DNA from: Rhizophagus irregularis
Taxonomy: Eukaryota
Length of the DNA: 64,000 bases
Assembly: GCF_026210795.1 (NCBI RefSeq)
Contig: NC_089430.1
Span: 6,014,001-6,078,000 of the forward strand
Reading direction: 5' to 3'
Below, piece after piece: positions 60 to 46,733 of the stretch; position 1 is the stretch's first letter, and the number at the start of each line of letters is the position of its first letter. Below the pieces are notes generated by a model. The model was not told the DNA's origin. It did not search any database and was given only the letters and a program-made list of their open reading frames with translations. The position numbers and the translations under genes were made by a program.

Positions 60-2579
60 ATTCCTTTACCAAAATTTCCGCCTATCGCCGTCGCATTAAT
101 ACCAAATAAAGGAAATGATAATTCAAAAACCATTAGTCAATTGCATAAGAAGCTTATTCAAGAAATTGCTTTTCAGCTTGAAATCCATATATTATCCATT
201 GGTTCTGATGGTGCTATTACTGAATTTCAAGCACAACAATCAATAATAGATATTCAAACTTCCCAAAGACTTTTTATTCGTGAACCAACATTAAATATTA
301 ATTTTTCCTGCCCCATTTTTGATAAGATTGGTCCAGTAGTTCGGGTTCAAGACCCAAAACACGCAAAAAAAACTGCAAGAAACGCGATAATATCTGGAGC
401 TCGGCTTTTAACTTTTGGAATATCTTCAGTCCGATATGATCATCTTCTTACTTTAATTAAACAGCACGATTCAATTATGTACAAAAATGATGTAATCAAA
501 TTAGATAAGCAAGACGATGCTGCTGCTTATCGAACTTTTTGTTCTGCAAATTTTAAGCAATGTCTTACACATGATTTTCAAGTAAAAGTAGGAATGGAAG
601 GAACTATAATATATTTATTTATCATGGGTACGTAATATTAAACAAATTAAATTAAAATTGATAATTAATATTATTTAAATTAATTTTTATTTTAAATTAA
701 TTAATTTTTTAACTTTTCATAATTAGGAGAAATTGTAGATTGCTATTTAAATCGTACTATTTCACCAATTGAAAGAGTACGTATGGCAATGACAGGTTAC
801 TTTTTTCTTCATTTATGGCGCTTTCACATTACAACTCTACACCAAAAATATCCAGACTTTGTATCTATTAAACAAAATTTCCTGGCCGACCAAAGTTTTG
901 CTATTTTTTCTTCTCTCTGTGAATCAATGGTATTACTTGTAAAAGCTCATCGAGACTATTATCCTCAAGTACCTTTTCTTCCTTGGTTGCATGGATCAGA
1001 GTCATGCGAGCATTTCTTTTTTGGTGTAGCAAGGCAGATAAATCCGGACTTTGATTTTGCTGAACTTATTCAAATGTTGCCTAAGATTTCACAATACACA
1101 AAAGCTCTACGGAATGGAAAGTTAAATTTTGATAAGGAAAGATCAGTACGTGAGGGTATATATATTTAACTATAATTAGTATTATAATTCTAATTATTAA
1201 TAATAATAACTGAAAAAAAAATTTTTAGGCTACCTTTTTGACTATACTTCTGAATTGGATAAGCTATCTTTAGAAAAACTTCGCTTATGGCCTAATGACA
1301 AGCAAATATCAGATACTATTCATCATTCATATCGTCTCGCTCAAGATCTTGCAGAATATGTTGGCATGATTCAACCATTTGATATCTCTGTTGATATTGA
1401 TACCCCACAGATCCTTATTGAATCACATGAAATTGATATTTCAAGTTCTGATGTTGACAAGCAATCCCATGATAATAATGATGATGAATACGATTTATCA
1501 ACTGCTATTGGTGAGGCTTCTTTAGAAATGAAACAAATTGCTGAAACTAGTGATGATAATGGGTGTGAATTCAATGATGATTTTACTGAAGGCCGTTCAC
1601 AGTTGGATGGAATTGCTAAGCCTCCTGAAAATTTGTATATTTTAAATGATGGGGATAGTGGTAAGCTTTATATTAACAATGAATATAAAAATTATATTTA
1701 TATTACATTTAATATTAATATTACCATATTTACTACAGTTGATTTATCATGTCGGTATTTATCCTTCAATAAATTGGATTTTGAATTCTTGTATAATCAG
1801 CGAAAATTCCATGAATCATATAGTTCAAGACCTCTTGAACGAAAATTTAAAATTGTTGGAGCAAATTCAAGAATAATAACAGAAGATCCAAATTCAATTC
1901 AACCAAATATGGCCAGTCATTTTGTTGCATATTTCACTAAAAATGAAAATCCAGAACAAAGATTCATAACTCAAAGGGAAAAACGATGGAAGGATAATCG
2001 AAAAAATATTGCTACAACATTAGCACAGTTACACGATCAAGAATTAGCCAAATCTAAAAATGGAAAGAAATTAAATAAAAAAAATGTCCAAGAAAGTTTA
2101 ATTAAAAGTAAGTTTTTTATATTAGTTTATTAAAGAAATTTATGTTTAAACTATTAACATACATTTTAAAAATAGTTCCAAATATTGAAACTGCAAATAT
2201 AACTGAAGATTTTCCATTAATAAAGGGAGATTATTTATTTGTTCGATATGGTTCTCAGATGTGCATCGGACGAGTAGAAGCTTTATATTTTGAGGCTTAT
2301 AATCACCATTGTTATACTGATATGCCTATTAAGGATTTGAACGATATTTCATATATTTCATTACATGTATTTGTTCCTTTACATTTAGAATTATTTACCG
2401 ATATGGTTAAAGAGGGTTGTTATATACTCACACATCATATTCCTTCAAACATTATATATCATATTAAACAGAATAGAGTAGTAATTGAAGGAAATTTTCT
2501 AAGATTAGTTGGAGATGGAAAACAATATTATTTTGATTATTTTGGCAGAAAAGATATTATTGAAAAAATGGTAAAATAG
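60..2579 (+). CDS. P-element/THAP9-like DDE transposase, 3' part (5' exons outside window), about 5 exons, apparently intact
   Basis: Motifs SDG, VQDPKHAKKTARN (D-x2-H) and GSESCEHFF.GVARQ (catalytic E). GT-AG introns at ~628-726, 1157-1229, 1661-1738 and 2108-2174 join the ORFs in frame (IMG|EIVD, REG|YLFD, DS|VDL, IK|IPN). Confidence 0.75.
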
Positions 2580-2745
2580 GTTGTTTTTGTAAATGATAAA
2601 ATTCGTAATACAATAAATCATGTGATCTTGAGGTCTGAAATTTTATTTGCGTATTTTTGCAGGATTTTCAATATCAGGTGTCAATTTTGCGTACCGTTCA
2701 TATAAAAAACCCTTGCGTACAGCTCATAGTAAATTTTTTTTTCGC

Positions 2746-2778
2746 CACCTGACCCCTATATGTATATTTCTGGGTCCT
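2746..2778. mobile_element. Right TIR of the P-like element carrying the 60..2579 transposase
   Basis: Reverse complement AGGACCCAGAAATATACATATAGGGGTCAGGTG closely matches the TIRs of the MITE at 52976-53188. It truncates the minus-strand transposase exactly here. Confidence 0.8.
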
Positions 2779-5637
2779 TTCCTTCTGATATATTTTTAAG
2801 TTCTTTAATAGTTGCTAGTGCATCTTCAACTTCTTTTGATAATGTATGCTCAGCAAGATCAACACGCATCTTACTCCATGAAGTAAGCCATATATGTCGT
2901 TTTGTAAGTTTGGTAGCTTTAGCAGTTGCATGTTTATTTGTATATTCATATACACCTTTTATATGTTTCCAACTAATTTCCTTTTTATTAAACATTATTT
3001 CTCTTGCATTTTTTTCACCTGTATGACTTTTTGATATGTTGTTTCTAAGTTTTTTAAAAACATGTGTTGGATCACTAATAAAAAACCACTCTTCTCCTGT
3101 AATAGGATTGATTGTTTTATAATTTAATAAAATTTCTTGATTATTATAAACAGGTCTAAGAAACTTACTAATATGATAACTAAAAACTTTCCATCCCTTT
3201 TTTGCATATATTCCTTCTATAATTTCTACAGATAATGTTGTTTCAACTGGATCAAACTCAATAATTTTTCCTAAGTACCATTTATTATCATCTGGATTTC
3301 TAAATTCGCATATTTCATTGACATTCCATTTCAATTTTGAAGGCATTGGTGGACGAATAAAATTTCGTTCAATTTCAATATTTTTAGGATTATTACAATC
3401 AAGTTGACATACAGTAAATTTTGTTTTTTCAAAATTACTATTTATAATTTTTGCTGCATAAAAAGATGTTTTATCTTTATTAAAATTAACTTCTACAATA
3501 TCACCACAAGTCCATTTTGATGCATACCAATCAAAACTTTTAATATGAATTCTATTTTCTCCTGCTCCATCACAAATTGATCCACATGTATATATACCTA
3601 TACACTCTAATTTTGCTGCAAGATTAAAAAGTAATGTATTTAAACTATGTACTGATATATTATTAATACCATAATAAGATATGGGAAATGCAAAATTATG
3701 TGTTATTGAATGCCAAACAATTTGATGAACTTGGGTTGCAAGTCCAAATTTTTGTTTATTACTTGATGTAGAATTATCTTCTATTGATATTGATTCTATT
3801 TCTTGTTTACATTGCATAGCAAACATCTCATACTCTTGCATTTCATTTTCAAAATCCAAATAACCAACATAACAATTTTTACGTCATCCAAAGAAGACCT
3901 ATTTTTAGATGTTTTACAATCAAATTAAATAATTAAATATAAATTATTGAAAAAATTTAAAAATAATAATAATTTTTACCTTTTTGAATTTTAAAAGAAT
4001 CATGAGAAAAAAATCCCACTCTTCCATATCCCCAAATTTTATTTATTGTCAAATTAGTTAATATTTGATTAGCAATTTTATCTTGCCAGCCTGATTTTTG
4101 TTCACTTTCGTTAATATAACTTTTAAGTGTTGAAATTGATGGTAAACGCATAATTGTTTTCATTGCATTATAAGCTGCATGACCTGATCTACTATATACA
4201 GATATAGCCCAACGTAAAAACCTAAAAAATTAAAAATATAAGATATTTTTCATATTTAATATCATCTTAATTAACCTTACATTGGATGATATCTTGTTCC
4301 ATTTGGTTTTTCAGTTTGAATACGAATAAGTTCTTGAAAAATAGGATGAAAAGCAGAAATATCTATATCTTTGTTAATAATACCTTTAGTAACAGTATGA
4401 ACAATATTTGCAATTTCACCTGATGCTTCTTCTTCTTCCCTTTCAATTTTTTCTTTTAAATGATCTTTTAAATCAATAATTATATTATTTTGTTCTTTAA
4501 TAATCTTTCTCTGTTGGCTAACCTTTTTTATAAGAGTTTCTTTTGATGCATGTGTTACTTTTATTGAGTTTGTTCCAGACAAAATTCTTTGTTGAATTCT
4601 TTGTAAAGTTTTTCGTAATTTTGCACAATTTTTGCATATATTTTTTTCTGTTATTACAAGTATACAATCTATTCTTCTATATACCTCATCAGGTTGACCA
4701 ATCCGTTCCATTAAAGCAAAAGGAGTATGATCTTTATTATTGCTAACTAGTTAAGTACCCCGAATATGTGTTACTTGTTCAAAACCTTTGAATAAAAATT
4801 ATCAAATAAAATTTACGTATATAAATAAATAAAAAATAAAAAATAATAATTAATTACCAGCAGTACTTTGTCCATAACAAATACTAACAGAAAAAACATA
4901 TCTAATAAAATTAATTATTTCATCAAGAGTTCTTTTCATTTCTTTGGTTGGAAAAGGAAGATATTTTTCTTTTACTATTTGATCAAATATATAAACTTCA
5001 TATCTATATAAACCACTCTTAGTTAGAATCAATAGCTTTTTTTCTGATTTTTCTTCTTTGAAAAAATGAAGTTCAAGACCTTCACTAATTTTTCGTATTG
5101 CAGTTCCAGAAAACTCTCCTCCTGGTTTAACTTTTTCTTGAATTGATGAAAGAATATCTGTGGTGTTTATTAACAATGATGTTTTCCAATATAATGAATT
5201 TGATGTAGATAAAATAGATGCAATTGACGGACTTGTAGGATTTGCTTCCAAAAAAATGGTTGCTGTAGCAGACCTACGTCCTTTAAAATATCCTCGGTTT
5301 CCCAAATAATCTATCCATTTGGAAAATGTGTCAAATTTGCGATTATCTTTGACGCTATATACATATGCTTTCTTATCCTTTACTTCATACATAAGCACAC
5401 CTTCAAAATATTTATCTAATGTTGGAAAAAAATATACCATTTTTCCTTTAAGGTTAGGCTTAGTACGTACAAGTTCTTGTAATGCTTCTGCTTTTTTTTG
5501 CTGCTTTGGTATTGGCAAATCAATACTATTCTCGTTTATATTAATTGCGCGTTTTTTTTGAAACTTTTTAATAAAAAATGTTAATATTATTTAAAAAATA
5601 TAAAAGTTGTGCTTTTCTAACCTTTAATGCCTACCAT
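2779..5637 (-). pseudogene. Second P-element-like transposase with two Tudor-like inserts; 3'-truncated by the first P-like element
   Basis: LPSISTL, FFSHDSFKIQKG, ICDGAGENR, FFISDPTHVFKKLRNNI and KLTKRHIWLTSWSKMRVDLAEHTLS are P/THAP9-type motifs. Multi-exon, probable ATG at 5637, frameshift near 3880. Confidence 0.8.
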
Positions 5638-5869
5638 TTTCAAGTTGTAGCGAAATTTTCTATGTATTTTAGATGTATTAAACCGCCGATCAAGTTTTTT
5701 AAAGTAAATAAACACGAAACTTTGACAAAAAATTATATTTTCAGATAGTTTTGCGTTTCTTTATTACCGATCAATTATTTTTTTTTCATGGATTATAATG
5801 ATTATCAATTGATTTTTCATCTTAAACATGGGGTACGATCATATTTTAATAAGGTTACTTATAAAATTA

Positions 5870-5917
5870 CATATGGCGACAGTTCTGGTTATTATTGATC
5901 AGTCTGTATAACCTATG
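5870..5917 (-). mobile_element. Probable 5' terminus of the second P-like element
   Basis: Minus strand reads CATAGGTTATACAGAC...GTCGCCATATG, a CA-starting end as in P elements, ~280 bp upstream of the ATG. Partner end is outside the window. Confidence 0.35.
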
Positions 5918-6074
5918 AGTTGGCCCCCCCGTTTATTTATCTAACCCCTAGATTTTATCTTTATTATCGTATTTTTATAAAATCACGTGATATACAAAAT
6001 GTACATTTAAATCTGAATTTTTTGAAATAATGAGGAGGGGTTAATGTTAAACGAGACTATTTGTTGAAACGGCC
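5918..6074. mobile_element. Right-end remnant of a PIF/Harbinger-like element that truncates the CACTA transposase
   Basis: Ends ...TTGTTGAAACGGCC followed by TAA, the same GGCC|TAA junction as the MITE at 60896-61209. The transposase frame (..IVNELEL) stops here. Confidence 0.4.
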
Positions 6075-7489
6075 TAACTCTAATTCATTGACAATAGGCG
6101 CAATATAATGATTAATCTTGTACAAGCTTACTTCGTTCAGTCCTGGTAGTAGACCGAGAACCAGCAAATTTTCGCGCTTGAACTGAATGTCACGGGGTAA
6201 ATTACAGATAGCCGTGTAAATTACCCAATACTATAAAATGTACCATCGTAGGGCTGGAACTAATCAAGGTTTATCATTAGTCCTAGATGTGAATCGGCTA
6301 CTTCTGGTCATAAAAATTTTGCTGAATTTTCATCGTCAGTTTCTCTTAATGTTTTCCAGATTTGACCATCATATATATCGGTCAGTATGTTATCGAATTG
6401 TTGACGATTTGACCAATATCGAAGTAACCGTTCAAAGTGAGGCTGACGATATAGAGTTTCCAATTGTTGATGAATCGGTATAAATGGATATATTAATTCT
6501 GGCTTTTTAACCTCTCTCTCAGCCAAGACCGTTTGACACGATTTCGTCCTTTGAGACGCAAAATTTGGAAATTCGACGTGACTGCATCTTATGATACCGA
6601 TACTGTCATTTTTTTGAATTTTGTCCATGTCTGTCTTATTATATAATTTATGACATTTCGGACATGGCACGAAACTATGGAAATGATCTTTCAGGCCAAG
6701 TTGAATTCTTGCCAGATATAGAGAGTCAGGAAAGCTATCGTAAATGTTTCCACCGATTTCTTTTAACACTATTTTCATGAATTTTAGTTGAGATTCATTC
6801 ACTGTTTCAGGGAGATTGAACTTTTTTCGAAAGGTCATTATCCACAATAAAATCCATGAAAATTTATCATCGATTGTCATTTTTTCTTCCTCTTGATATG
6901 ATTTAAAATCTGGCGGTGAATAATTTTCAAAAGTATCGGCAAAAGTTTCATCATCTGACTCATTGCCATCAGAAGAAGAAGTATCAGTATGTTGTTCATA
7001 ATCAGAATTGCTCAAATCTTCTGTTCCTGAATGTTCAAGTATAATTTGTGGGCAATTTGCGTAGCTTCTTATACATCTTCGAGGTAAAAAAATATATTTG
7101 TTTTCATTGTATTCTGAAGTTGTCGAATTATCTTTTTCATTTAATGGAATTGTTGTCGAATCTTCTTCTAAAGGAGTTATTACTGAAATCTCTTCATTTG
7201 GAGGTACCAAAATATCTTCATTTATCGGATTTTCTTCTAATGAAGTTATTGTCGAATCCTCTTCTTGATTAATTAGTAACAATGAAGCCAAACCACTATT
7301 AAGATTTGAGTCAGTTGTGTTTTTTGCCACTTCGTGAAGCATTTTGGTTCGTGTTATAACCAGTTTTCCATTACATTTGTCACAATAACAAGGGACTTTG
7401 GTTCTTTTTTTGCTAAACCTTCTAGAAGATAGTCAGTTTGCTATCCTTTCTGAACCCATTATTTGATTAATCGATCTTCTTCTCGTCAT
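6075..7489 (-). pseudogene. CACTA/CMC (EnSpm/Plavaka-like) transposase, frameshifted and truncated
   Basis: CPKCHKLY, CSHVEFPN, YPFIPIHQQL, DIYDGQIWK, then after a frameshift LD*FQPY..ICNLPR..LGLLPG..INHY; homologous to the 21962 transposase. Confidence 0.85.
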
Positions 7490-7597
7490 GTTTTATAAAA
7501 TTTGATAAAGAATCGGTTATAATTAATATATACTTTAAAATTTAACGAAACTTTGACAAATGAAGTCAATTTTTCTCTTGAAAATTAAAATTTTATG

Positions 7598-8100
7598 AAA
7601 TTTTTTTTTTAATTTGAAAATTTCGGTTAAATTTGATCCGTTAGTAATTGATTTAATAAAAGTTTAATTTTGAGATTTCGATTAATTAAATTTTCAATCA
7701 TGAGAATTTTTTTTAATTTGAAAATTTTGGTTAAATTTGATCCATTAGTAATTGATTTAATAAAAGTTTAATTTCAAGATTTCGATTAATTAAATTTTCA
7801 ATCATGAGAATTTTTTTTAATTTGAAAATTTCGGTTAAATTTAACCCGTTAGTAATTGATTTAATAAAAGTTTAATTTCGAAATTTCGATTAATTAAATT
7901 TTCAATTATGAGAATTTTTTTTAATTTGAAAATTTCGGTTAAATTTGATCTGTTAGTAATTGATTTAATAAAAGTTTATTTTTGAGATTTCGATTAATTA
8001 AATTTTCAATCATGAGAATTTTTTTAATTTGAAAATTTCGGTTAAATTTAATCCGTTAGTAATTGATTTGATAAAAGTAATAAAAGTCTAATTTCGATTA
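7598..8100. repeat. Tandem repeat, ~108-bp unit, ~4.5 copies, between the divergent genes
   Basis: Unit TTTAATTTGAAAATTTCGGTTAAATTTGATCCGTTAGTAATTG...TTTTCAATCATGAGAA. Confidence 0.9.
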
Positions 8101-8424
8101 AACTTTTTTAACGATTAATTAACTTTTAAATCAAATTTCGGTTTTATTTTTATCAAATAGACTTTTTCCCAGGAAAGCTTATTTTGAATTTTGAATTTAT
8201 AAAGCTCCATCAATCGAATTTTTTCGCAAAAATAATTTTATTTTTTCGATAAACAATTCTTGTAATTTTTATAAAATTTTTATAAAATCTGCAATACATT
8301 TTTATATTGATCGTCAAACATAACTTTTATATAAATCGAACAATATTTTTCGTCATTTTGAAAGAAAGTTCTACTTTATTTACTAATTTTACTATTCTTC
8401 TGTTTATTAAAATCTCTATAAAGA

Positions 8425-11635: not shown

Positions 11636-12707
11636 TTGCGATTTAATTGATTTAATTAAAATAATTGGTAAATCAATCGAAATAAAATCGGTTTTAAAAC
11701 TTAAATTTGCTAAATTTCGTCAAAATTATTATGGTCGATTTTATTTATTTTTGCAAATCAGCAAATTAAATCAATATCGATTTTTAAACGAATAGTCGAT
11801 TGTTTATGACGAATTTCATTTGCATGGCAGGTTCGAATTTTATTGATATGTACAGCCGACTTTTTTAACTAATTCTGAAACTTTGCCAATTTCTAATTGC
11901 AAGTAGCAGGCGTTACAGTGCAAATCATCCATAAAATTAGTTGCCAATTTTTTTGGTACTGATCGGCTAATGTCAGACCAAATTTTGTCCAACATTCGGC
12001 AATTTAAAATTTTGCTGAAATGGACTATTCTGACCAGTGTTTTACTTTGTAGGTATCAGATTCACTCTGGACACGTAAATTTTGAAGAAGTTTGCAAAAC
12101 TTCTTAATTTTTTTTGAAATTTAACTTTATTTTTTCTTTTATTTTATAGATGTCGGCTTTGGCTCTTGCACGGCATGTTAGATAGGCAGGTTTTGAAGTT
12201 TCATTATGAAACTTCTTTATTTTTTTTAAAAAATTTAATTAATTTTTTTTTCTTTTATTTGTAGATGTTGGCTTTGATTCTTGGATGTTGGATAGGTCGG
12301 TTCTGAAGTTTTATTTCGAAACTTCTTTTCAAAATTTTTTTTAAATTTAATTAACTTTTTTTTCTTTTATTTGTAGATACTGCTTCGATTCTTTAACTTT
12401 GAATAGGTGGGTTTCAAGGTTTCATTGCGAAACTTCTTTATTTATTTTAAAAATTTATTTAATTTTGTTTTCTTTTATTTGTAGATGTCGACTTCGATTC
12501 TTGTATGTTGAATAGATGGATTTCGAAGTTTTGTTTCAAAATTAATTTCTTTTTAAATTTTATTTAACATTTTTCTTTTATTTATAGATATCGGTTTTAG
12601 ATTATTAGATGTTGGATGGGTGAGTTTTGAAGTTTCGTTTTAAAACTTTTTTTCAAAATTTTTTTTAAATTTAATTAACACTTTTTTCTTTTATTTGTAG
12701 ATGTCAG

Positions 12708-12951
12708 TAAGATTGCTTGTCTAAACCTCTTCAAAATCCTATGATTAGTTTCATCAAAATTTTACTATAGATTTATTATAGTTTTGGCAGAGTTTTGGCA
12801 GTTTCAGCATTTATAATAAGTTTCGGCAGTTTCGCCTTTCTCCAAAGTTTTGCCAGTTTTTTAATATAACTTTAATATAGTTTCAGCAGAATTTCGCTTT
12901 TCGGCGAAATGCCATCTTGCCTAAACCCCTAGGTTTCGGCAAGCAACCTTA
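12708..12951 (+). mobile_element. hAT-type MITE, 244 bp, copy 1
   Basis: TIR TAAG(G/A)TTGCTTG...CAAGCAACCTTA; 8-bp TSD GATGTCAG. Confidence 0.9.
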
Positions 12952-13272
12952 GATGTCAGCTTTGATTCTTTAACTTTGGGTAGGTGAGTTTTGAAGTTTC
13001 ATTTCGAAACTTTATTTTTTTTAAATCTTTATTTTTTTAAAATTTTTTTTCTTTTAATTGTAGATATCGACTTTGATTCCAGGGTATCAGATATGTAAGT
13101 TTCGAAGTTTTACGAAACTTTAATTTTTTTAAAAATTAATTTAACATTTTTTTTTTATTTGTAGATATCGGTTTTGATTCTTTGGCTTTGGATAGGTGGG
13201 TTTCAAAGTTTCATTTTGAAACTTTAATTTTTGAAAAATTTAATTGATTTTTTTTTCTGTTATTTGTAGATA

Positions 13273-14234
13273 CAGTCAACTCCCTCTATAGTCACTCCCG
13301 TTATAGTCACATTCTACTATATAGTCACACCAGTTGAATGTTCAAAACACTTTATTATTAAAATCTATCCTATATAGTCACAATCTATCTATAGTCACTA
13401 TCACACCTATCCTCAAAAATCTTATATTAAAAAGAACCGTTTATAATCACAGTTATATAAAGAATATATTAAATAACTTGGCATCTAATAATCGTACAAA
13501 GATGTATCATAGCTTGTTAGAATCGTCTTACTGAGACGAATCGAATGGTGGTAGTTTTATCCTTTTCCGATCACTGGCTGACGGGTTATTCAACAAAATG
13601 TTAAGCATCGGCATTATAATATTTCTTGATTTACATTTACTGCGCCATTTAACATTTTGCTAGATTTCTCGGTACCTAGTGATTGTAAAAAGACGATTTT
13701 TAGCTCGTTTGAATCGCCTCATCGAGACGAATCGAATGGTGGTAAGCTCATCTCTCTGTGATCAATATTGACGGAGTTATTACTTAAAAACCATTTAATA
13801 TTTTTTTAATTTCGGAAATTGATCTAGTGATTGGATTTCGATGTATCATATACCATTAGATTCGTCGCATCAAGACGAATCGAATGGTAGTAAGATCGTC
13901 TTTCTAGGATCAATATTGACAGAGTTATTACACAAAAACCATTAATATTTTTTTAATTTCGGAAATTAATCTAGTGATTGGATTTCGACGTATTTTATAC
14001 CATTAGAACCGTCTCATCAAGACGAATCGAATGGCGGTAAGATCATCTCTCTACGATTAATATTGGCGAAGTTACGATACAATAAAGTTTTAAGTATAAT
14101 TCTGGCTAAAATTATGTTAATTTTTGGCCGGAATTATGATATACAAATATAAGAAATTTTTTATATAGTCACATCTCTTTATAATCACCAAATATGGACT
14201 GTCCCAAATGTGTGACTATAAAGAGAGTTGACTG
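13273..14234 (+). mobile_element. Tc1/mariner(pogo)-type non-autonomous element, 962 bp, copy 1
   Basis: TIR CAGTCAACTC(C/T)CT(C/T)TATAGTCAC; TA TSD; near-identical inverted copy at 18457-20061. Confidence 0.9.
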
Positions 14235-14817
14235 TATCAGCTTCATTGGATAGGATGAATTTTAAAACTTTAAAAAACATTAATTCTAGGCGTGATAAAC
14301 ATGAAATTTTGGTGAGTTTTTAATAGATCTATTATTTAATGAAAATTTACTTACATTTCTTTTTTTTTTCATTTTTTTAGGTAACTAGTTTTCGGACCTT
14401 TGGATGTGTAAATTTCTTTTGTAGATATAATAGATAAATATTAGATAGGATATTAGATAAGATATTAGATAGGATATTAGATAGAATATTGCAATAATTA
14501 TAATAAATACAATTTATACAAATTTCGGAATAAAATCATAGACCTATCAGTATACAATACATATAATGATCATACAAGTATCATACAGGTATTATTGAAG
14601 TATATAGATACCGATATGAGTATGATATCTATACAATATTTTCATGATATTTATAAACCGATATGTAACTTATATGTAATTTATATGTAACTATCTCTTC
14701 CATTAATCGGTGCCATATCGGGATTACTAATCCGGAGATATCAGAATACGATATATGGATTATCAGGTGATTATCAGGTGACTGATATATTACCGATATT
14801 CCATCATTTGACCAGTG

Positions 14818-21482: not shown

Positions 21483-21961
21483 TGCCTACTTTGATTGCTT
21501 TGATTAAGAAGAGGAATTTGTGAAAAAAGATTTGTGAGCAAATTTATAGATTTCGAAGTTGTTGAGATTTGACTACGCGAATGAGTAATGCGAGATACAC
21601 GAATGAGTGACGTGAGATATGCGAACTTGATTTTGAAGAACTGCATGCGAATTTGATCTAAAAGAATAATTAAACGTTTATTTTATCTTACCAAAAACGC
21701 GAAACTGATTTTGAAATAGGAATTAAACGCGAAACTAATCTTAATCTTAAGGAAAAATTGAACGTGTATCTGATCCTAAAAGAAAGGTTGAACACGAAAT
21801 TGAAGAATTGAACGCGAACTTGTTCTTGATCCTAAAAAAGTGATTGAAGAACCTGATTTTGGAAAAATTGAATTGATAATTTTTTTGAAAATTTTTTAAT
21901 AAGCGTACTTCATTTAAGTAATTGTAACCTTAACTTTCTTAGCTATTTCATAAAATACAAA

Positions 21962-24900
21962 ATGAATAATAAAAAAAGTAAAATTGAAACCTTTAACTCC
22001 GTGTCTGATTTAGTAAAACACAAAAAAAGTAAAATTGAAACCTCTACCTCTGTTTCTGATTTAGTAAAACCCAGGAAAAGTAAAATTGAAACTTCTGCCT
22101 CCGTGTCTGATTTAATAAAATCCAAAAAAACTAAAATTGAAATCTCTACCTCTGTATCTGATTTAATAAAATCTAAAACGGCCAATTCAATAAAATTAAA
22201 AAAACCAAAAATGGCCGATTTAATAAAACCCAGAAAAAGGTATTTGTATCCATACCATTGTATTCGTTGTGACGGCACAGAGGTTGATTTTCGCACTCAA
22301 GAAAATCATACAAATGATGAAAGTTTGTGGAACTCAGAGGATACTAGGAAAAATCAGGAAGATACTATTACAGCGAGAAAACAAAAAAGATTAATCATTA
22401 TTCAAGATGTAAACCTTACAAAAAAGCGAAAAAGGGCATCAAGTTCTAATCTTGATTCTTCCCAACATAATAGTGGCTTTAATCGTTTCAATGAAGATAC
22501 TGATTCATTCCAACCAAATAATAATGAAAACATACATACATTATTTTCATCATCACCATTATTGCCAAATCCTTCTTATTTTCATGTTCCAGCACCTGAT
22601 GAAAATAAGAATAACGATGAATATATATATTACAATGAAGAAGAAGAAAATGATGATAATGAGGATGATGGTGATGAGGATGACAGTGATGAGGATGACG
22701 GCGATGAGGATGATGGCGATGAGAATAATGGTGCTGAAAATAATGGTGGTGAAGATGAAGGTGATTATAATGAAGAAGAAGATGATGATGATGATGGAGA
22801 TGATGAGGAGGAGGAGGAGGATATAGAAGAATTTTTTTCATCTCCTGAAATTGGTAATGATGAAGTATTTGTGATGGAAAGTTTAAATGATTCTATAGAA
22901 ACCAAAATTATTCTATGGGTATTCAAATTTCAACAAAGATTTAGACTTCCAGATATAGCACTTGAAGTATTAATAAAATTCTTACATATTGTACTTACTC
23001 GTTTAGATAAATCACAATTTAAAAATTTTCCAGCATCCTTATATCTTGCAAAAAAAATGTTAAATATCTTTCAACCAAAAATGCAGTTAGCTGTATGCAA
23101 CAATTGTCATAAATTGTATAATGTTAGAAATATTGTTGAATACAAAGAAGAAGGAAAAGCTGCTATTGCAAATTGCCTACATGAAGAATTCCCAGATAAT
23201 CCAGTACCTAGTCGTCGTAATAAATGCAACAATCCACTTTCTATTCTTAAAAAAAGAAAGGGTAAAATAATTGCTGTACCTCGTATGATTTACCCTAAAC
23301 CAAGTATTCGTCAGCAATTAAGTATGTTATACCAACGACCTGGGTTTGAAGATATGCTGGAATTATCAGGAATTCAAAGAGGAGGGGTTAATACCTATTC
23401 AGATATTTATGATGGTAAGGTATGGAAAACTTTCCCATTTAATGGTGATACCTTCTTTACACCAGAAACTGCGACAACACACCTGGGCCTTCTCTTTAAT
23501 CTTGATTGGTTTCAACCTTTCACCTATACTCAACACAGTGCTGGTGCTATTTACGCGTCTATCTGTAATCTTCCGAGAACAGAAAGGAATAAACCCGAAA
23601 ATATTATTTACTTAGGTTTTTTGCCAGGACTGAAAGAAGTAGGGTTGGAACGTATTAACCATTATTTAGCCCCTATTGTGGATGAGCTTTTAGAACTCTG
23701 GAAGGGCTGGAGAGTTCCAAAGACCTACCAATATACTGAAGGTTTAGACATAAAAGTTGCATTAATTATTGGATCATCAGATACACCAGCAACACGAAAG
23801 TTATTTGGGCATGGCTCAGCAGTAATGAAATGTCATAGGTGTGAAAAGCGTAGTACTTATAGTGAAGTTTATAAAAAAACTCATTATGGAGGAATGCAAG
23901 AATATGATAAATGGATAACAAATCCCATAAATCCTTCATTACATAGGCAATATGCTCATGAATGGTTGCAATGCAATTCGAAGTCCTCCAGAGATACACA
24001 TTTTAAAGAACATGGTGTAAGGTGGAGCGAGTTGCTTCGCTTACCATATATGGATCCCATAAGATTTGCCGTGGTGGATCCAATGCATTGTTTTTTTCTA
24101 GGTATAGCAAAATGGATAATCAAATCCATTTTCATTAATCAAAATAAGTTAAGCATGGAGCAACTTCGAATTGCACAAAAGAGACTGGATTATATTGAAT
24201 TACCTTCTGATATCGGTAGAATCCCCCAAAGATTGCAATTGGAAATGAAGGTTTTTCAAATTTAACTGCTGATCAATGAAAAACCTTTATTATGATTTAT
24301 TCCACGCCTATACTATGGGACATGCTAGATAATAATGATAGAAAAATCTTAGGACATTTTGTTCGAGCATGTAATCTTTTAGTAGCAAGATTTATTACAG
24401 AAGATGATCTGAGAGAAGCGCAAGAGAGGTTGAAGGACATGGCTCACCTTATAGAAAGAACATATGAGCCAGAATTTATAACAAGCAACATATACCTTGC
24501 ACTTTATATTTCCGACTGTTACCGTGACTATGGTTTCATATATAGTTTTTGGCTTTTTCCATATGAGAGACTTAATGGATATATTGGTAAGATGTTTGTT
24601 GTTATGTTAATATTTTTTAAAAATAAAGAATACAAATAAATCTATTATTATTATCCAGGATCATACCCTAATAGTAATCGACAAATAGAGCCTGAACTTA
24701 TGCGAATCGTTCTTAAGAATACTTTAATAGATTATCATTTATCTTATAAATGGTCATCTGGTCTTCTAAAAAAATCTCTTAGTCTTATTATGCCAAAACA
24801 AGCTGTGGGTAGTTTGGCATTTACGGCAGAAAAGGATGAGTTACAACACTTTTTGTCCATGAGACATAATACATCTACGTTTTCCAAAATATATGGTACT

Positions 24901-25476
24901 GAGAAATTACCGGGTCAAATGCTTAATCCTTCGTGTTTCAAAGTTATGATACCTTTAGAATTGCGTAGATTTCTATGTGAATGGTATTCTATATTATATG
25001 AAAAAGAACAAAATAAAGTATTAGGATTTATGGACCTGGTAATTGATCAACACGTAAGATTACAAATTGGTGCTGAAATATTTGGATCTATGATTTCGGG
25101 TCATCAAGAAAAAAATGTAACTATTCTTGCAAAATGGAAAGCGTCTAATGATGATTCAGTTGATATATACCCAGGAGATGTTCAATATTATTTTGAACAT
25201 ACACTTAGATTACCTGAAGGACCAAGAAAACATCTTTTAGCATATGTTAAGTGGTATAAAAGTGCACCTTCCTCTGATATCCGGTTTAAACATAGATTCA
25301 TAGAACCAGAGATATCAAATACCGAACTATGGCAAGCTGAATACTTTCAGGAAGGTTGTGATTCAATAATAGCTGTTCATAGAATACTATGTAGAGCTAC
25401 AAAATTCAAAAGTGTGTGCGTAGGAAAAAGGAAATATTTGTCAATAATACCATTAAATAGAAAATTTAATTTATAG
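21962..25476 (+). pseudogene. CACTA/CMC transposase (Transposase_21-like core) with a frameshift and a premature stop
   Basis: CNNCHKLY, DIYDGKVWK, NLDWFQPF, SDTPATRK, DPMHCFFLG, FWLFPYERLNG. Frameshift ~24230, TGG>TGA ~24277, intron ~24588-24658. N-terminal 16-aa repeats (KKSKIETSTSVSDLVK) and an acidic tract. Confidence 0.9.
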
Positions 25477-33597: not shown

Positions 33598-34002
33598 TAA
33601 AATTGCTATGAATCGCCGGAGGCGATCATCGCCGGCATCACGTGATTTTTAATAATGTATAATTTGTCACCCCGCATCACACCCTCCTTGTTTCCGTTTT
33701 TACTATGTATTCTAGGTACTTAAAATTTTTTTAGTATGAAAAATCCTATTTGTCACCCTTATTTGTCACATCCTATAATTTCAGCTAAATTTTATAATTC
33801 CGGCCAAAATTGCCTTTTTGGAAACTTGAGTAATGTTACACAATCCAAAAAAAGGCAATTTTGTTTCTCATAAAAATCGAGAAAATGGGTTACACAAGAT
33901 TCCAACAAAGGCAATTTCTATGTAGATCATTTAATTCCGGCCAAAATTAAAAAATCACGTGACGCTGGCGATGATCGCCGCTGGCGATAAATAGCAAACT
34001 CC
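33598..34002. mobile_element. Mutator-like MITE, ~405 bp
   Basis: ~55-bp TIR (TTGCTAT..ATCGCC..GGCGATCATCGCC..TCACGTGATTTTTAAT); 9-bp TSD TTTATATAA. Confidence 0.75.
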
Positions 34003-34698: not shown

Positions 34699-37587
34699 CA
34701 CTCGTCGAACGATGTCAAATCGGGAATCAATCAGGTGACCGAATTCCACCTGATTGGTCCCTATTTTTTTAAAAAATTTTATCAATCGGTAAACCCGATT
34801 GCTGTCAAAAGATGGCGCAAAAGGAGGATACTCGGGTACCAATCAGGATATTCAATAGAGTATAATCGGGTATTAATAGTTACCAATAGGATATTTACTG
34901 GATATTTACTATTTGACATATCAGTATACCGATTGATAACTTTTTGATAAATTTATAACAATAAGAAATCTGCCGATTGCATACATTTTTATTTAAATTT
35001 ATTTGATATTTTACAATAATTACATTTAATAATTTAAATTTATTAATTATTAAAAATACAAAATCAGAAATACTACTAATACTGAAATTTTATCTGGAAT
35101 CCGGTATACAGGTTGGAGCAAATTCCCTACAAAAGAAATAAAAAAACATTAAAAAAAGTTTTTTAAAAAAAGTTTCAAAAGTTAAAACTTACTTATGGGA
35201 TTCCGGTATATACATCTATCAGAGCCAATTCCCTATAATAGAATAATAAAAAAACGTTTATTACCGTTTTTTTAATAGTTTCAAAAAAAAATTTCTGAAA
35301 CTTATTACTTATGGGATTCTATGGGATTCGTTATACCAATTCCCTATAATAGAACATTTAAAAAAAAAACGTTAAAAACGTTTTTTTAATAGTTTCGAAA
35401 AAATATTTTTCGAAACTTACCTATGGGATTCGTTATACCGATTCCCTATAAAAGAATTAAAAAAAAACGTTAACGTTTTTTTAATAGTTTTGAAAAAATA
35501 TTTTTCGAAACTTACCCATGGGATTCGTTATACCGATTCCCTATAAAAGAATTAAAAAAAAACATTAACGTTTTTTTAATAGTTTCAAAAAAATATTTTT
35601 CGAAACTTATCTATGGGATTCGTTATACTGATTCCCTATAAAAGAATTAAAAAAAAATGTTAACGTTTTTTTAATAGTTTCGAAAAAATATTTTTCAAAA
35701 CTTACCTATGGGATTCGTTATACCGATTCCCTATAATAGAATTAAAAAAAAACGTTAGTTAACATTTTTTTAAAAGTTTCGAAAAATATTTTCGAACTTA
35801 TCTATAGGATTCATTATAACCGATTCCCTATAATAGAATAATAAAAAAGTATTAGTTAACATTTTTTTAAAAGTTTCGAAAAATAATTTTTGAAACTTAT
35901 CTATGGAATTCGTTATAACCGATTCCCTATAATAGAATAATAAAAAAACGTTAGTTAACATTTTTTTAATAGTTTTGAAAAATAATTTTTCGAAACTTAC
36001 CTATGGGATTCGTTATACCGATTCCCTATAATAGAATTAAAAAAAAACGTTAGTTAACGTTTTTTTAAAAGTTTCAAAAAATATTTTTCGAAACTTATCT
36101 ATGGGATTCGTTATAACCAATTCCCTATAATAGAATAATAAAAAAACGTTAGTTAACGTTTTTTTAATAGTTTCGAAAAATAATTTTCGAAACTTACCTA
36201 TGGGATTCGTTATAACCGATTCCCTATAATAGTGTATTAGAAAAAAAACGTTAAAAACATTTTTTAATAGTTTTGAAAAATTATTTTTCGAAACTTACCT
36301 ATGGGATTCGTTCCTATAATTGAATATTAAAAAAATGTTTTAAAAAAACGTTAAAACATTTTTTAATAGTTTCAAAAAATTATTTTTCAAAACTAATCTA
36401 TAGGATTCGTTATAACCAATTCCCTATAATTGTATATTAAAAAAAAAAGTTTCAAAATTTTTTTTCGAAACTCACCTATGGGATTCGTTATAACCAATTC
36501 CCTATAATTGAATATTAAAAAAAAACGTTTTAAAAAAATGTTAAAACATTTTTTAATAGATTCAAAAAATTATTTTTCGAAACTAACCTATAGGATTCGT
36601 TGTAACCGATTCCTTATATTTGAATAATAAAAAAAAACGTTAAAAACGTTTTTTAATAGTTTCGAAAAATTATTTTTCGAAACTAATCTATAGGATTCGT
36701 TATAACCGATTCCCTATAATTGTATATTAAAAAAAAGAGTTTCGAAAAATTATTTTTCAAAACTCACCTATGAAATTCGTTGTAACTGATTCCCTATAAT
36801 AGTGTATTAGAAAAAAAACGTTAAAAACGTTTTTTAATAGTTTTGAAAAATTATTTTTCGAAACTAACCTATGGGATTCGTCCCTATAATTGAATATTAA
36901 AAAAAAACGTTTTAAAAAAATGTTAAAACGTTTTTTAATAGTTTCAAAAAATTATTTTTCGAAACTCACCTATGGGATTCGTTATAACCGATTCCCTATA
37001 ATTAAATATTAAAAAAAAAGTGAGTTTCAAAAAATTATTTTTCAAAACTCACTTATGGGATTCATTATAACCGATTCCCTACAATAAAATGTTAAAAAAA
37101 TGTTAAAAATCGTTTATTAATATCTTCAAATAAATGGTTTTTTCAGTTTAATAAAGTTTTGAAAGTAAATGTTTGAAACTTTTGTGGGATTCCGGTATCC
37201 AAATCGGAACCAATTTCCTAAAAAAAAAAATTTTTTTAAAAGTTTCAAAAGTAAATGTTTGAAAAAAATGTTAAAGATAGTATGAAATAGTTTAAACTTT
37301 TTTTTAAGTTTTAAAAGTAAATGTTCGAAAAAAATGTTAGTGTAAATTTCAATAGTATAAAATAGTTTAATTTTAGTTAAAGAAAAATAGTTTATCAATA
37401 GTCTAATTGAAACAATAGAAATCAATCAGTAAATTTAAACTGAACAATAGTTATCAATCGGGTATTAACCTGATTGATACCCGATTGAAGTGTACACCAA
37501 TTTCTAACTATTGAATAAATCAGGTGACCGATCAAAAAAAAAGTTACCAATCGGGTAGGTACCCGATTGGTCAGCGTTTTACCTGTG
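34699..37587. mobile_element. Non-autonomous CACTA-like element F
   Basis: AAA|CACTCGTCGAACG ... CGTTTTACCTGTG|AAA; CCCGATTG/CAATCGGG subterminal repeats at both ends. Confidence 0.65.
35085..37225 (-). repeat. Homogeneous tandem array (~22 units of 80-110 bp), each a 25-26-nt exon-like segment plus an intron-like spacer
   Basis: Minus strand: ACTAACG..TTCTATTATAG|GGAATCGG(T)TATAACGAATCCCATAG|GTAAGTTTCGAAAAATATTTTTCGAAAC. Confidence 0.9.
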
Positions 37588-38997: not shown

Positions 38998-41900
38998 ATG
39001 GAATATAATGATAGTGAAACAACTGAAACATCCAACTCTGAGAGTAGCTCTTTTAACAGTAAATATGAAGAAAATGAAACATCCAAAAAAATTGCTGAAC
39101 TTAAACAAGAAATTGCAAAACTAGAAAATACTAATAAAATAAAACAGAAAAAAACAAAAAAATTATTAATATTAAATCAACCAAAAATATCAGAAGCCAA
39201 ATCATCTGATAGTAAATTATAAAAAAAGGATCGTTAAATTGAAAAAATAATACAACAAAAATGAAAAAAAGATTATAAATCAAAAAAGTGATACTGCTAA
39301 ATTCTCTAGCAATAAGTCTGAACAGGTAAAATTAACTAAAACATTACATATTTACATACATATTTTTTGGGTTTATTACTTATTATTACTGTATTTATTT
39401 TTATTGCACGTCATATAGCCAATTTCAAAAGGAAAATATAAACACCAAAACATTTCTTCTTATCTTCATATACCAAAAGAATTTGGCATGGTTATATGGT
39501 ATTATAATGTTTATAATTGTATTTTTTTTTAAAAAAAATTGTTCTCTAAAAATTGCAGGAGTTTATGAGACTTTTAGTAGCTGAAAAGCTCTATCCTTTA
39601 TGCCCTACTACTGAATATCATGATATGCCTCTTAGTGAAATTAATAAATGTATTGATAGGGTAAATAATTGGCATGAATTTATTAGTTTGATTTTTTTTA
39701 ACTTAATGTTTATTTTTTATTTGTTTAATTTCGAAAAAAATCCATCTTTTCCAGAACTGTAAGTGATTGGAAAGAACGTGAGATGATCTGTCAGCATGTT
39801 AATTATAAGCGTAAGTCATATGTTTAATTTTTAAATCGATCAGCAGAATTGTTTAACAATACTCTTTTTTTAAACATATAGGATCAACTCTTAGTGATAA
39901 AACTCAAAAGACACTTAAATCTCATAAACTAAATGGAAATAGCAAAAGATTTAATTTGTAATTCATCGATCATGTATAGCACGTGCATATAAGCCACGTA
40001 ATTGATTTTTGGGTTAATAACTTATAATTTTTTCATATTCTTCGTGAATCTCAAGAAACCCATAGTGATTCTGTGTTTGTTAAGGCTAGTTTCGTTATAG
40101 TTAACAATTTTACATATTAAATAATAATCATATAAATATACAAATAGTTATTGTTTAAAAAATTGTGTAAATATTATCGTACTTATGATAAAACGACGCG
40201 AACTAGCAGTTACGTTAGTTTCTTGTAGAATAATTGAACCCCGCTTACATTATGGACCATTTTCACGAAACTGGTAGTTTATTCCAACAATAAAAAGTAG
40301 TAATGATATAGAAATGATGTATCCTATTCGGATTGGTATGAGAACACAAGTAGAAATAAATGGAAAAAAATTTACTATGCGTATTTTAGAAGGAAACAAA
40401 TTTGATTTGAACCAACCTGGTTATACTTGTCAATGTGATTCTGATTCCAGTGAAATTGAAGATAATCCAACTAATGCAATTACTTCTTTATATAGACAAA
40501 TTTTCAAAACTCAAACAAAAATTTTGGGTTCAATGGTTATGGGTTTTGATAAGGATTCAATATTTACCGAATTATTACAAGATATAGAATTCTGCCCTTA
40601 TTCTATTAGTATAGCAGATAAACTGACTATTATGGTTTTCAGTTTAGGTGCTTCTAAAAAAGAAAGTTGGTTGGGTGCTGGAGAAGGATATATGGCTTCT
40701 TTTATTCATATTTTTAGAAAAGAACGTTGTATTTTTGTTCAAAAATTTATAAAAAACAAGTCCATAGTAGAAGTATGGAATAATAGCACTAAAATTTCAC
40801 ATTATGAAGGTAGTTCACCTGTAGAAGTTTGGCAAAAAATTGGAATTTTGGGAAAATTCCAAGGTACACAATTATTTGGGCTTGAGCATGCATATACGTG
40901 ATCTGCGTTACGATGATTATATATTCCAAAGTGTCAACCATCTCAATGGAGTAATGAAAAACTAATGAATAGTTTATACGAATATCACCTCAAAAGACGA
41001 ACTATTGTTGGAATAAATTGGTTACATTTATTTAAACAGTGAGAGTCTGGTGGAAATATTATTGAAATAAATACAATCCTTACAAATTTATATCCAAAAA
41101 ATTACCAATTTAGTGATCGTGAAATGCAAGCTTGGAGCTCTATGCTTAAAGCTGCTGGTTGTACAGATATAACACCTTTTAATAGTGAAGTATCTCCAGT
41201 AATTGTATTTTATAATTGATTTATCTCGTCTTACATTAGGAATTATCAAAATTCATATAAAAAACAGCATAAATTTTGGTCACGATCTTTAGATCCTACG
41301 GATGATAAAAATACTTTGAAGAATCTCTTTCAACTAGGCTTTTTAAATCCATATCCATCAAGTATTCAAAATCCGTCACAAATATTTTGGGATTGTTTTG
41401 CAAAAAGTTTAACACAAAATCCAAAAGGTCCTGATGGGATATGACGAATTTTATCCATTATTGCACATCAATTTTCTTATCAGGAATTACAAAATAGACT
41501 TGGAGTAAATATAATATGAACTATATTCTTGTATATCTTCGTGAAATATTCTAAATAAATTTGATGATATTAATTTAGGTTTCACCTACAACTATTAATG
41601 CGGCAAGAAAATATGCTACACTCAATGGTTCAGGATGCCGACAAATAAAAAAACCTATAATTATACGTAGCCCACCTTTTACTAAAGAAATAGAAGACCA
41701 ATTTGAAGCTTTTTTTTCAGACAAAGCAAATGTTAGTATGAGTTCGTATAAGGTTAATCCAAGAACTAATCATCCGATTCTTTACCTGCTTGATCAAAAA
41801 GAATCATTATGGAAAAGATTTTCAGAAATTTATCCTAATGATATGAAAAGAACGGTATTTATGGGACGGATTGAAGATGGTCCATATAGGTATCGTGAAG

Positions 41901-45181: not shown

Positions 45182-46733
45182 TTTTACAGCCTTGTTAGGA
45201 GTAGAGCTCCGCAACCTGACCCGACAGATCGGGTGACCTGATGGGTTGACCCGAAATATTCAGGTCAGGTCATCAAATTCATGACCTGACACAAGTCGGG
45301 TCAGTGCTGGTCGGTACCCGACCCGACTCGTTGACCTGACATATATTTGGGTCAAATAAATTAAATAACGCCGAAACTTATAATAATTCTGGCATTTTTA
45401 CATGTACAATCGAAAAAAAATGCCGTAACTATCAGTTTCGGCGTTTTTACATGTAAAATCAAAAAGAAGAACGCCGAAACTAATTATTCCGGCATTTTTA
45501 CATGTAAAATCAAAAAGAAAAATGCCAGAACAAATTATTCTGGCGCTTTTACATGTAAAATTGAAAAAAAACGCTGAAACTATCAGTTTCGGCGTTTTTA
45601 CATGCAAAATCAAAAAGAAAAATGCCGGAACTAATTATTCTGGCATTTTTACATGTAAAGTCGAAAAAAAAATGCTAAAACTATCAGTTTCAGCGTTTTT
45701 ACATGTAAAATCAAAAGGAAAAACACTGAAATAAATAGTTTCGGCATTTCATATATAAAAACAAAAGTAAAAAACGTTACAAAATGTTTTTTTACAATAT
45801 TTAATAATAAAACTTCGGGCAACCTGAGTTACCCAAAGTGACCTGAATACTTTCGGGTCAAATGGGTCAGATCGGGTCAGAACGGTTTACCCGACCCGAC
45901 CTGACCTGAAAAAAAATTTCAGTTCGGGTTAACCAAGTAACCCGACCCGACCCGACCCGTGCGGAGCTCTAGTTAGGAGATATACCTATTAACCGAGTAG
46001 GAGTATTATTGTAAATATCATCATTTATACGAAGTCCTTTAATCTATACTCTGGATCTATCAGTTAAAGGCAAATGAAAATCTTCAGTATCTTGCCAAAA
46101 ATAAGCATGTTTTTCAAATTCTTGATGGTCACGTTCAGCAATAGCTATATCACGTTTAGAGTTAGCATACTGAATTCTTACATTATAACTGGGTAATAAA
46201 TCTCTACATTCGCCCATATATTCGGTACCTCTATCTACAATAAAAGTATTTGGATAGCTAAGAGGATTATTAGGATCATCATAGATTTTCTGAATTGCTC
46301 TGGCCATCTGTGTAGCTGTTTTATCAGTCAATGCAAAACTGCAACGATACCTAATTGCAATATCTTTGATAACGCCCCTATACTTATAAATCTGATTACT
46401 TACTTTATCATGAGGCATAGGAGTAGTATCACTCTGGTGTACTTCATTCAATGTTCGTATATTATTGAAAGAAGCGTATTGAATAAATTTTGGCCGAGGC
46501 TTGTGAATCTGATGTAAAGCCTGTTTGTTAAGCCAATTTTTTATAACAGCCAAAATAAACCCATATCTGGCTTTCTTACAAGCCATTTGCATTTTTTCAG
46601 CAGTCCGATAATATCCCTCAGGTCTGTAATAAAGTTTCTGTAAAGCAAGATCCCAATCTAAGTCTCAAGCTTTTTGAGGATCAATATAAATAACCAGGAA
46701 ATCAAAGACTTTAAGCTTCATTTCCTCTCCCAT
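45182..46733 (-). pseudogene. Polinton/Maverick-type (rve family) integrase, N-terminal and catalytic part, interrupted by a hAT MITE
   Basis: LQKLYYRPEGYY..WLNKQALHQIHKPRP..HQSDTT..KDIA.RY..IVDRGTEY..AIAER..YNNTPTRLIG.SPN; D-D-E triad visible; two in-frame stops. Confidence 0.85.
45202..45971. mobile_element. hAT-type non-autonomous element, 770 bp, with internal ~42-bp tandem repeats
   Basis: TIR TAGAGCTCCGCA; 8-bp TSD GTTAGGAG; ACCCG/ACCTG subterminal repeats; internal TTTTACATGTAAAA palindromes. Confidence 0.92.

What the first reader, a model, noticed from the sequence alone, without database searches (positions are those of the whole stretch)
3130..3530. P-like transposase with tandem Tudor/Agenet-like domains inside its catalytic core
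Seen: between the second catalytic Asp motif (CDGAGENR) and the D-x2-H motif (ISDPTHVFK) lie ~130 extra residues with two repeats, WTCGDIVEVNF..FYAAKII..FTV and WNVNEICEFRNPDDNKWYLGKIIEF..LSVE. Established: in P/THAP9 transposases this linker is much shorter, and W..G..V(E)..W/FY.A/GKI is the Tudor/Agenet pattern of methyl-lysine readers. Inference: chromatin-guided targeting, which could help explain the extreme nesting.
Basis: partly seen in the sequence, partly recalled or inferred. Interest (0 to 1): 0.7.

Follow-up and report, generated by a model that had tools for sequence, protein, structure and literature searches.

The report
Tudor barrels inside a transposase core
A family of P-element-type cut-and-paste transposons of mycorrhizal fungi carries one or two predicted Tudor/Agenet barrels inserted in the catalytic domain of its transposase, likely as a tether to target chromatin, but the barrels lack most of the pocket that such domains use to read methylated histones.

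Summary
The window holds a broken copy of a ~5.5-kb P-superfamily DNA transposon of Glomeromycota (99% identical to a Rhizophagus irregularis protein). Between the second catalytic Asp and D-x2-H lie 166 residues, against 39-48 in 104 of 120 insert-free P-like transposases. The extra ~130 residues are predicted to fold as two Tudor/Agenet barrels (best matches: plant ADCP1/AGDP3 tandem Agenet), while the rest matches Drosophila P transposase (Z 34). The insert is in frame in genomic DNA, present in a spliced contig, found across eight named species in six genera (one-barrel and two-barrel forms) and under weaker purifying selection (dN/dS ~0.45-0.50 versus 0.11-0.14). Insertion flanks show a Galileo-like 7-base motif, and 5 of 10 lie near a CACGTG box. 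Most likely a cage-independent accessory tether (0.45); a structural passenger (0.25) and a methyl-lysine reader (0.12) are rivals. I found no description in print.

The parts
5878..5951 (-). Left terminal inverted repeat of the element (starts CTAGGGG at 5951)
   Evidence: Homology to six loci (L001, L002, L004, L008, L031, L037) begins at or within 30 bases of 5951; the same sequence is the inverted right end of L002, L005, L008; loose ends at 5951 in DNA runs
5635..5637 (-). Start codon at the end of exon 1 (transcribed leader reaches at least 5751)
   Evidence: GT-AG intron 5564-5634, spliced in contigs of X18 and X20
4858..5563 (-). Exon 2: N-terminal beta-rich domain of unknown family in place of THAP, then a second alpha/beta domain
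   Evidence: intron 4786-4857 is GT-AG and is removed in X18/X19 contigs
4281..4785 (-). Exon 3: CxxC motif, coiled coil; premature TAA at 4753-4751 in this copy
   Evidence: single stop in exons 1-4; X8, X11 and X17-X20 contigs read G at 4753, X1 and X2 agree with the window
3980..4221 (-). Exon 4: helix-turn-helix region and first catalytic Asp (HDSF, 4001-3999)
2780..3898 (-). Exon 5: RNase H N-part, Tudor insert, D-x2-H, start of GTP-binding insertion domain. The window is 2 bases short near 3885 relative to all four DNA runs laid (likely an assembly error)
3569..3571 (-). Second catalytic Asp (CDGAGENR)
   Evidence: aligns with the conserved D of 81 insert-free P-like transposases (80 D)
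3344..3523 (-). Tudor/Agenet barrel 1 (aa 121-180), present also in one-barrel members
3143..3334 (-). Tudor/Agenet barrel 2 (aa 184-247), without a canonical aromatic cage; conserved W231
3062..3073 (-). D-x2-H motif (DPTH)
2748..2779 (+). Right terminal repeat of a different, high-copy element that interrupts the transposase gene
   Evidence: Same terminus at both ends of a MITE at 52976-53188 with 8-base duplication ACAGATAT; homology to relatives stops at 2779/2780; an X2 contig spans 2749-3035 without differences
5984..5989 (.). CACGTG box 33 bases outside the left terminus

Best explanation
This is a Glomeromycota family of P-superfamily DDE transposases that carries one or two predicted Tudor/Agenet barrels in a loop of the RNase H core, which likely act as a cage-independent tether that helps the transpososome hold target chromatin. 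Shown: the insert, its reading frame, splicing, spread, purifying selection and loss of the cage residues. Predicted: the fold, and a core that still superimposes on P transposase. Inferred: the barrels came from a cellular multi-Tudor protein early in the family's history; they loop out between the helix after D2 and strand 5; and they contact a nucleosome surface, an unmodified tail, DNA or a host protein rather than a methyl-lysine. Exact site choice likely still comes from the core (7-base Galileo-like motif). The few flanks seen point to E-box-bearing sites, including the ends of other elements. The window's own copy is dead (stop codon, interrupted).
For: Fold: ADCP1 Agenet 3-4, E 4e-7; NtAGDP3 AGD1-2, Z 10.5, rmsd 3.5, 122 aligned. 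Sequence: a profile of the insert retrieves 92 proteins; of the 37 scanned, 12 are family members and the other 25 all carry Tudor/Agenet-type Pfam hits. Core: full model of relative P0004 vs 6P5A Z 34.0, rmsd 3.4, 424 aligned, model 310-930; D1, D2, D-x2-H and E columns match insert-free P-like proteins. Retention: 17 of 39 loci allowed both motifs to be read in one frame; 15 give 161-169 and 2 give 107. dN/dS 0.50 and 0.44 for the barrels versus 0.14 and 0.11 for the core (11 sequences, non-independent pairs). Structural Tudor/Agenet residues are kept (W124, V-E-V, R-P, W186, C-E-F, W202). X18 contig is spliced across three introns into the insert as far as 3186. Flanks: 5 of 10 termini have CACGTG within 45 bases versus 0.5% of window 45-mers (0.9% GC-matched).
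Against: No binding partner was tested. The insert is about four times less constrained than the core, and one-barrel members exist, so barrel 2 is dispensable in some lineages. Net charge of the insert is near zero (-3 to +2 in 13 sequences), which points to neither DNA nor histone tails. Two gene models have short linkers (P0020 58, P0021 86 residues); they look like mis-spliced models of broken copies, but I did not see their DNA. The flank sample is small, was noticed post hoc, and two flanks belong to one repeat family. P elements without Tudor also favour promoters (PMC7776569). The position of the loop next to target DNA was not computed.
Confidence: 0.45

Rival explanations
1. Structural passenger: a captured Tudor pair, perhaps once a reader, now kept only because it must fold for the core to fold.
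For: Cage positions lost or variable; dN/dS four times that of the core; one-barrel forms; the most conserved residues are mainly those of the barrel core.
Against: A 60-130 residue insert is kept in every genomic locus where the spacing could be measured (17 of 17), across six genera, although a 42-residue linker works in insert-free relatives. W231, which lies outside the canonical cage columns, is aromatic in 38 of 41.
Confidence: 0.25
2. One reading: a methyl-lysine reader that steers insertion to heterochromatin, as chromodomains do for chromoviruses.
For: Best fold matches are H3K9me2-binding tandem Agenet domains, with a Pro-rich linker as in ADCP1 (PMC6318295). Barrel 1 of the window's subfamily has two of three aromatics (F134, Y142); barrel 2 keeps Y/H203 and W231.
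Against: ADCP1 needs Y301/W306/F323 in barrel 2, and double mutants do not bind (PMC6318295). The family has S/N and I at two of the three cage columns. Barrel 1: 32 of 63, 20 of 60, 3 of 55 aromatic. Sgf29 (H3K4me), FMRP, UHRF1 and SMN score close behind, so the fold does not name a mark. Flanks are richer in GC and CpG than the window average.
Confidence: 0.12
3. The barrels bind nucleic acid: transposon ends or flanking DNA, compensating for the missing THAP domain.
For: No THAP match in 12 of 12 family proteins scanned. Tudor/SH3-like barrels bound to DNA appear among the fold matches (5xfr, 6kco).
Against: The insert is not basic, and a conserved folded N-terminal domain occupies the THAP position.
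Confidence: 0.1
4. The barrels bind a host silencing protein (for example methyl-arginine on Argonaute-type proteins) and help the element evade RNA silencing.
For: The closest non-family sequences are multi-repeat SMN-type Tudor proteins. R. irregularis has about 40 AGO-like genes (PMC11075540).
Against: Methyl-arginine binding uses the same cage, which is missing.
Confidence: 0.05

Closest known systems
Drosophila P element transposase (PDB 6P5A/6PE2) and THAP9-type P-like transposases of animals
   Same: HTH, split RNase H with D-D-E, D-x2-H, helical GTP-binding insertion domain (Z 34); terminal inverted repeats
   Different: No THAP domain; a second, beta-barrel insertion before strand 5, apart from the known insertion between beta5 and alpha4 (PMC7776569); transposase of about 1,350 aa; target duplication not demonstrated
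Galileo (P superfamily)
   Same: 7-base target consensus GTATTAC/GTANTAC (PMC4168063); 11 termini here match GTAWTAC at 4.45 of 7 positions versus 2.45 in background
   Different: Short terminal repeats (about 30-80 bases), no THAP, Tudor insert
Plant ADCP1/AGDP1/AGDP3 tandem Agenet domains
   Same: Two predicted barrels joined by a Pro-rich linker; best structural match
   Different: The Y/W/F cage of barrel 2 is not kept; no net negative charge; sits inside an enzyme core
Gypsy-10_Ec32 of Ectocarpus (Tudor-bearing LTR retrotransposon) and chromodomain/PHD-TE fusions
   Same: A Royal-family domain carried by a mobile element (PMC12477816, which calls Gypsy-10 the first reported TE with a Tudor domain; bioRxiv 10.1101/2021.11.30.470311)
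   Different: Gypsy-10's Tudor is C-terminal and in a retroelement; here the barrels are tandem, internal to the catalytic fold, and in a cut-and-paste element

Membership tests
P superfamily DNA transposon | RNase H-type D-D-E triad with D-x2-H motif | tested here: met
   D1, D2, D-x2-H, E columns shared with 81 insert-free P-like proteins; the window copy ends before E
P superfamily DNA transposon | Helical GTP-binding insertion domain and P-type overall fold | tested here: met
   PF21788 E 2e-11; 6P5A Z 34.0, rmsd 3.4, 424 aligned. GTP binding itself not tested
P superfamily DNA transposon | Terminal inverted repeats | tested here: met
   Whole elements L002 73-5627 and L018 706-6240
P superfamily DNA transposon | 7-8 base target-site duplication | tested here: inconclusive
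   No matching duplication in 2 of 2 distinct whole-element contigs (possibly collapsed or decayed); flanks fit a 7-base Galileo-like motif
P superfamily DNA transposon | N-terminal THAP domain (typical of animal members) | tested here: not met
   No THAP match in 12 of 12 family proteins; a different folded domain is there
Tudor/Agenet (Royal family) domain | SH3-like twisted beta-barrel of about 60 residues | tested here: met
   Two models; fold searches
Tudor/Agenet (Royal family) domain | Sequence homology to Tudor/Agenet | tested here: met
   Weak Agenet hits in 7 of 13 members, none for the window's own insert; profile retrieves Tudor proteins down to E 4e-39 through repeats
Methyl-lysine/arginine reader of ADCP1 or SMN type | Three-residue aromatic cage | tested here: not met
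   Barrel 2: 0 of 50, 28 of 44, 0 of 41; barrel 1: 32 of 63, 20 of 60, 3 of 55 aromatic; control Tudors 66 of 69, 66 of 69, 23 of 24 and 12 of 15, 11 of 15, 10 of 14. Judged by alignment columns, not by model coordinates
Methyl-lysine/arginine reader of ADCP1 or SMN type | Binding of a methylated peptide | not testable with these tools
   Needs peptide array or ITC

The most novel reading that the evidence does not exclude
A cut-and-paste transposase with a built-in targeting module grafted into its catalytic fold: the cage-less Tudor pair binds a chromatin feature or a host factor at E-box (TCACGTGA) sites and places insertions 20-35 bases from them, a natural modular targeting device in a DDE enzyme.
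Probability: 0.25. Interest if true: 0.85.

Novelty: new variant of a known kind. Interest (0 to 1): 0.62.

Why it matters
How DNA transposons choose their targets is largely open, and the Tudor-bearing element described in print is a retrotransposon with a C-terminal Tudor. This family shows that the P-type RNase H core tolerates a 60-130 residue folded module just after the second catalytic Asp. That is a natural site for grafting targeting domains, and the one-barrel, two-barrel and insert-free elements of the same genomes give a ready comparison of insertion profiles. It also adds a P-superfamily family in a fungal group where P elements were counted as rare (PMC5751038).

Tried and rejected
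Artefact (retained intron or a nested gene): rejected; the insert is one open frame in genomic loci and lies in a spliced contig. Single-copy oddity: rejected. Insert in animal-type P-like transposases: none of 120 matched the insert profile (best E 0.78); these 120 are the best of 471 hits around one query and do not stand for all P elements. Single-sequence Pfam and PDB sequence searches of the window's frame gave no Tudor hit; the profile gave only E 0.25-0.5 hits to TDRD1, SPF30 and Qin. A profile of whole proteins found no P transposase in PDB by sequence. A tree of 39 cores with the insert left out (8 further rows dropped as the motif pattern missed them) separates the Glomeromycota family from the animal-type rows (100/100) but leaves its base unresolved, so one barrel versus two cannot be ordered. 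The N-terminal domain found no family in Pfam, PDB sequences or the Atlas, and was not folded alone; its likeness to SAND/RAMA-type domains is recalled, not tested. The Atlas gave no usable hit for the insert. No whole genome was held, so copy number and genome-wide insertion bias were not measured. The terminal-repeat pattern found nothing in viral contigs. No listed run is on record as RNA; the expression evidence rests on spliced joints. Earlier findings: none by words or sequence. No complex was predicted, as no suitable partner was at hand.

Full report
Observation. Pfam places the P-type RNase H N-terminal domain at aa 35-115 and the GTP-binding insertion domain at 274-364, with nothing between. 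The second Asp and D-x2-H are 166 residues apart. In 104 of 120 insert-free P-like transposases (those with names are animal) the distance is 39-48; 16 were not measured. The excess is about 125 residues at 3134-3532.

Organism and family. All 35 hits of the first protein search are from Glomeromycota: Rhizophagus irregularis (99% identical), R. clarus, Glomus cerebriforme, Diversispora epigaea, D. eburnea, Entrophospora, Gigaspora rosea and Dentiscutata erythropus. UniRef names three of them 'Agenet domain-containing'. A search with the region after the insert gave 46 hits, 45 from Glomeromycota and one THAP-bearing P-like protein at E 2e-4. Of 36 proteins, 19 could be measured: twelve at 159-169, three at 133-152, two at 111, and two short ones (58, 86) that look like mis-spliced gene models (inference). 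Of 39 metagenome loci, 17 gave both motifs in one frame: fifteen at 161-169 (two barrels) and two at 107 (barrel 1 only, as in Entrophospora).

The element. Homology to relatives starts at about 5951 with a terminal inverted repeat; whole elements are about 5.5 kb (L002 73-5627, L018 706-6240). No target duplication was seen in those two contigs. The 7 bases outside 11 termini match GTAWTAC at 4.45 positions versus 2.45 in background (0 of 100,000 draws), close to Galileo's GTATTAC/GTANTAC (PMC4168063, passages). The window holds five exons with GT-AG introns. Contigs of runs guessed to be RNA are spliced: X18 across introns 2-4 into the insert as far as 3186; X19 across introns 2 and 4; X18 and X20 across intron 1 (two studies). 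They read G at 4753, so they come from an allele or copy without the stop. The window's copy has a stop at 4753-4751 (shared by X1 and X2), is 2 bases short near 3885 compared with all four DNA runs (likely an assembly error), and is cut at 2779/2780 by the right end of another element.

Fold. AlphaFold2 on 27 sequences is confident mainly for aa 121-250: two barrels. Foldseek ranks ADCP1/AGDP1 Agenet 3-4 first (E 4e-7), then AGDP3, FMRP, Sgf29, FXR and UHRF1. VIA-align gives NtAGDP3 AGD1-2 Z 10.5 (rmsd 3.5, 122 aligned), with TDRD3, UHRF1, FXR1 and SMN at 9.2-9.7. A profile of the insert finds 92 proteins among 1.84 billion; of the 37 scanned, 12 are family members and 25 carry Tudor/Agenet-type hits. 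A full model of R. clarus P0004 (124 sequences, pLDDT 75.7) superimposes on Drosophila P transposase (Z 34.0, rmsd 3.4, 424 of 442) and separately on tandem Agenet at 549-684. So the predicted core is intact and the barrels loop out before strand 5, apart from the known beta5-alpha4 insertion (PMC7776569, passages). Catalytic columns are conserved.

Selection. In 11 stop-free sequences (5 dropped for stops), median dN/dS is 0.50 and 0.44 for the barrels and 0.14 and 0.11 for the flanking core; pairs are not independent.

The cage. ADCP1 binds H3K9me2 with Y301, W306 and F323 of the second barrel, and double mutants lose binding (PMC6318295, passages; likewise PMC6208443, passages). Aligning 18 Tudor-containing proteins to the insert profile marks the equivalent columns, aromatic in 66 of 69, 66 of 69 and 23 of 24 domains for barrel 2. 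The SPF30 alignment agrees. In the family these columns are aromatic in 0 of 50, 28 of 44 (16 more His) and 0 of 41; in barrel 1, 32 of 63, 20 of 60 and 3 of 55. A tryptophan outside these columns (W231) is aromatic in 38 of 41. Net charge is near zero.

Targeting clues. Five of 10 termini with enough flank have CACGTG within 45 bases, against 0.5% of window 45-mers (binomial 8e-10; 1e-8 GC-matched). L008 was dropped as a duplicate of L002, and three ends had too little flank. The pattern was noticed after the fact, and two flanks resemble one repeat at window 33,662-33,809. TCACGTGATC is a top motif of accessible-chromatin footprints in Aspergillus (bioRxiv 10.1101/857284, passages). This hints at open, E-box-bearing sites, including ends of other elements, rather than plain heterochromatin; it does not implicate the barrels.

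Mechanism. Most likely (0.45) the barrels are an accessory, cage-independent tether to target chromatin or a host factor, with the core choosing the 7-base site. Rivals: fold-constrained passenger (0.25), methyl-lysine reader (0.12), DNA binding in place of THAP (0.10), binding of silencing proteins (0.05).

Literature. Searches listed no paper describing this family or a Tudor insert in a DNA transposase; most listed papers were seen as listings only. PMC11075540, PMC8647823 and PMC11952901 (AMF transposons) and PMC5751038 contain neither 'Tudor' nor 'Agenet' in their main text (term counts and passages; supplements not read). PMC12477816 (2025, passages) calls a Gypsy element the first reported TE with a Tudor domain. 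bioRxiv 10.1101/2021.11.30.470311 (passages) lists 823 chromatin-TE fusions, mostly PHD and Chromo; its supplementary table could not be seen and may bear on novelty. Subscription papers and Repbase were not searched.

Verdict. Real, old and apparently undescribed beyond automatic labels: a new variant of a known kind. Interest 0.62.

Noticed in passing
window 60-2779 (+): A second, likely P-like transposase gene (SDG, QDPKH 48 residues later, SESCEHF motifs; no Pfam hit) without a Tudor insert. Its right terminus (2748-2779) interrupts the Tudor-bearing gene; very high contig depth over 2624-2871 in all four DNA runs.
   Followed up: partly
window 52976-53188: 213-base MITE with the same terminal repeat as the interrupting element and a perfect 8-base duplication ACAGATAT, inserted in another gene.
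   Followed up: partly
window 5204-5518 (-): Conserved, confidently predicted beta-rich N-terminal domain where animal P transposases have THAP; no family found; resemblance to SAND/RAMA-type domains is recalled only.
   Followed up: partly
window 5952-5996; L002 27-72 and 5628-5672; L031 225-269; L037 46-90: CACGTG box about 20-35 bases outside five of ten element termini.
   Followed up: partly
window 4222-4383 (-): Alternative in-frame splice (162 bases, GT-AG) in an X18 contig removes part of exon 3.
   Followed up: no
window 6308-7432 (-) and 21872-25476 (+): Two related transposase-like genes with DIYDG motifs (CACTA/Plavaka-like by recalled motif; not tested).
   Followed up: no
window 35120-37140, 55950-57280, 61310-62500, 58470-60270: Long tandem arrays of roughly 90-110 base units and large inverted repeats; other arrays at 7580-8150, 12070-14240, 45360-45780.
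   Followed up: no
window 33603-33997: Small inverted-repeat element with CACGTG in both arms; relatives of it flank two Tudor-P termini (L031, L018).
   Followed up: partly
window 40278-43318 (+), 46044-46664 (-): Further transposase- and integrase-like frames (one with cysteine clusters and a D-N-G-P-H-Y motif).
   Followed up: no
window 2780-5951: CpG observed/expected is 0.61 in the element (0.49 in the insert) versus 0.97 for the window, consistent with past methylation.
   Followed up: no
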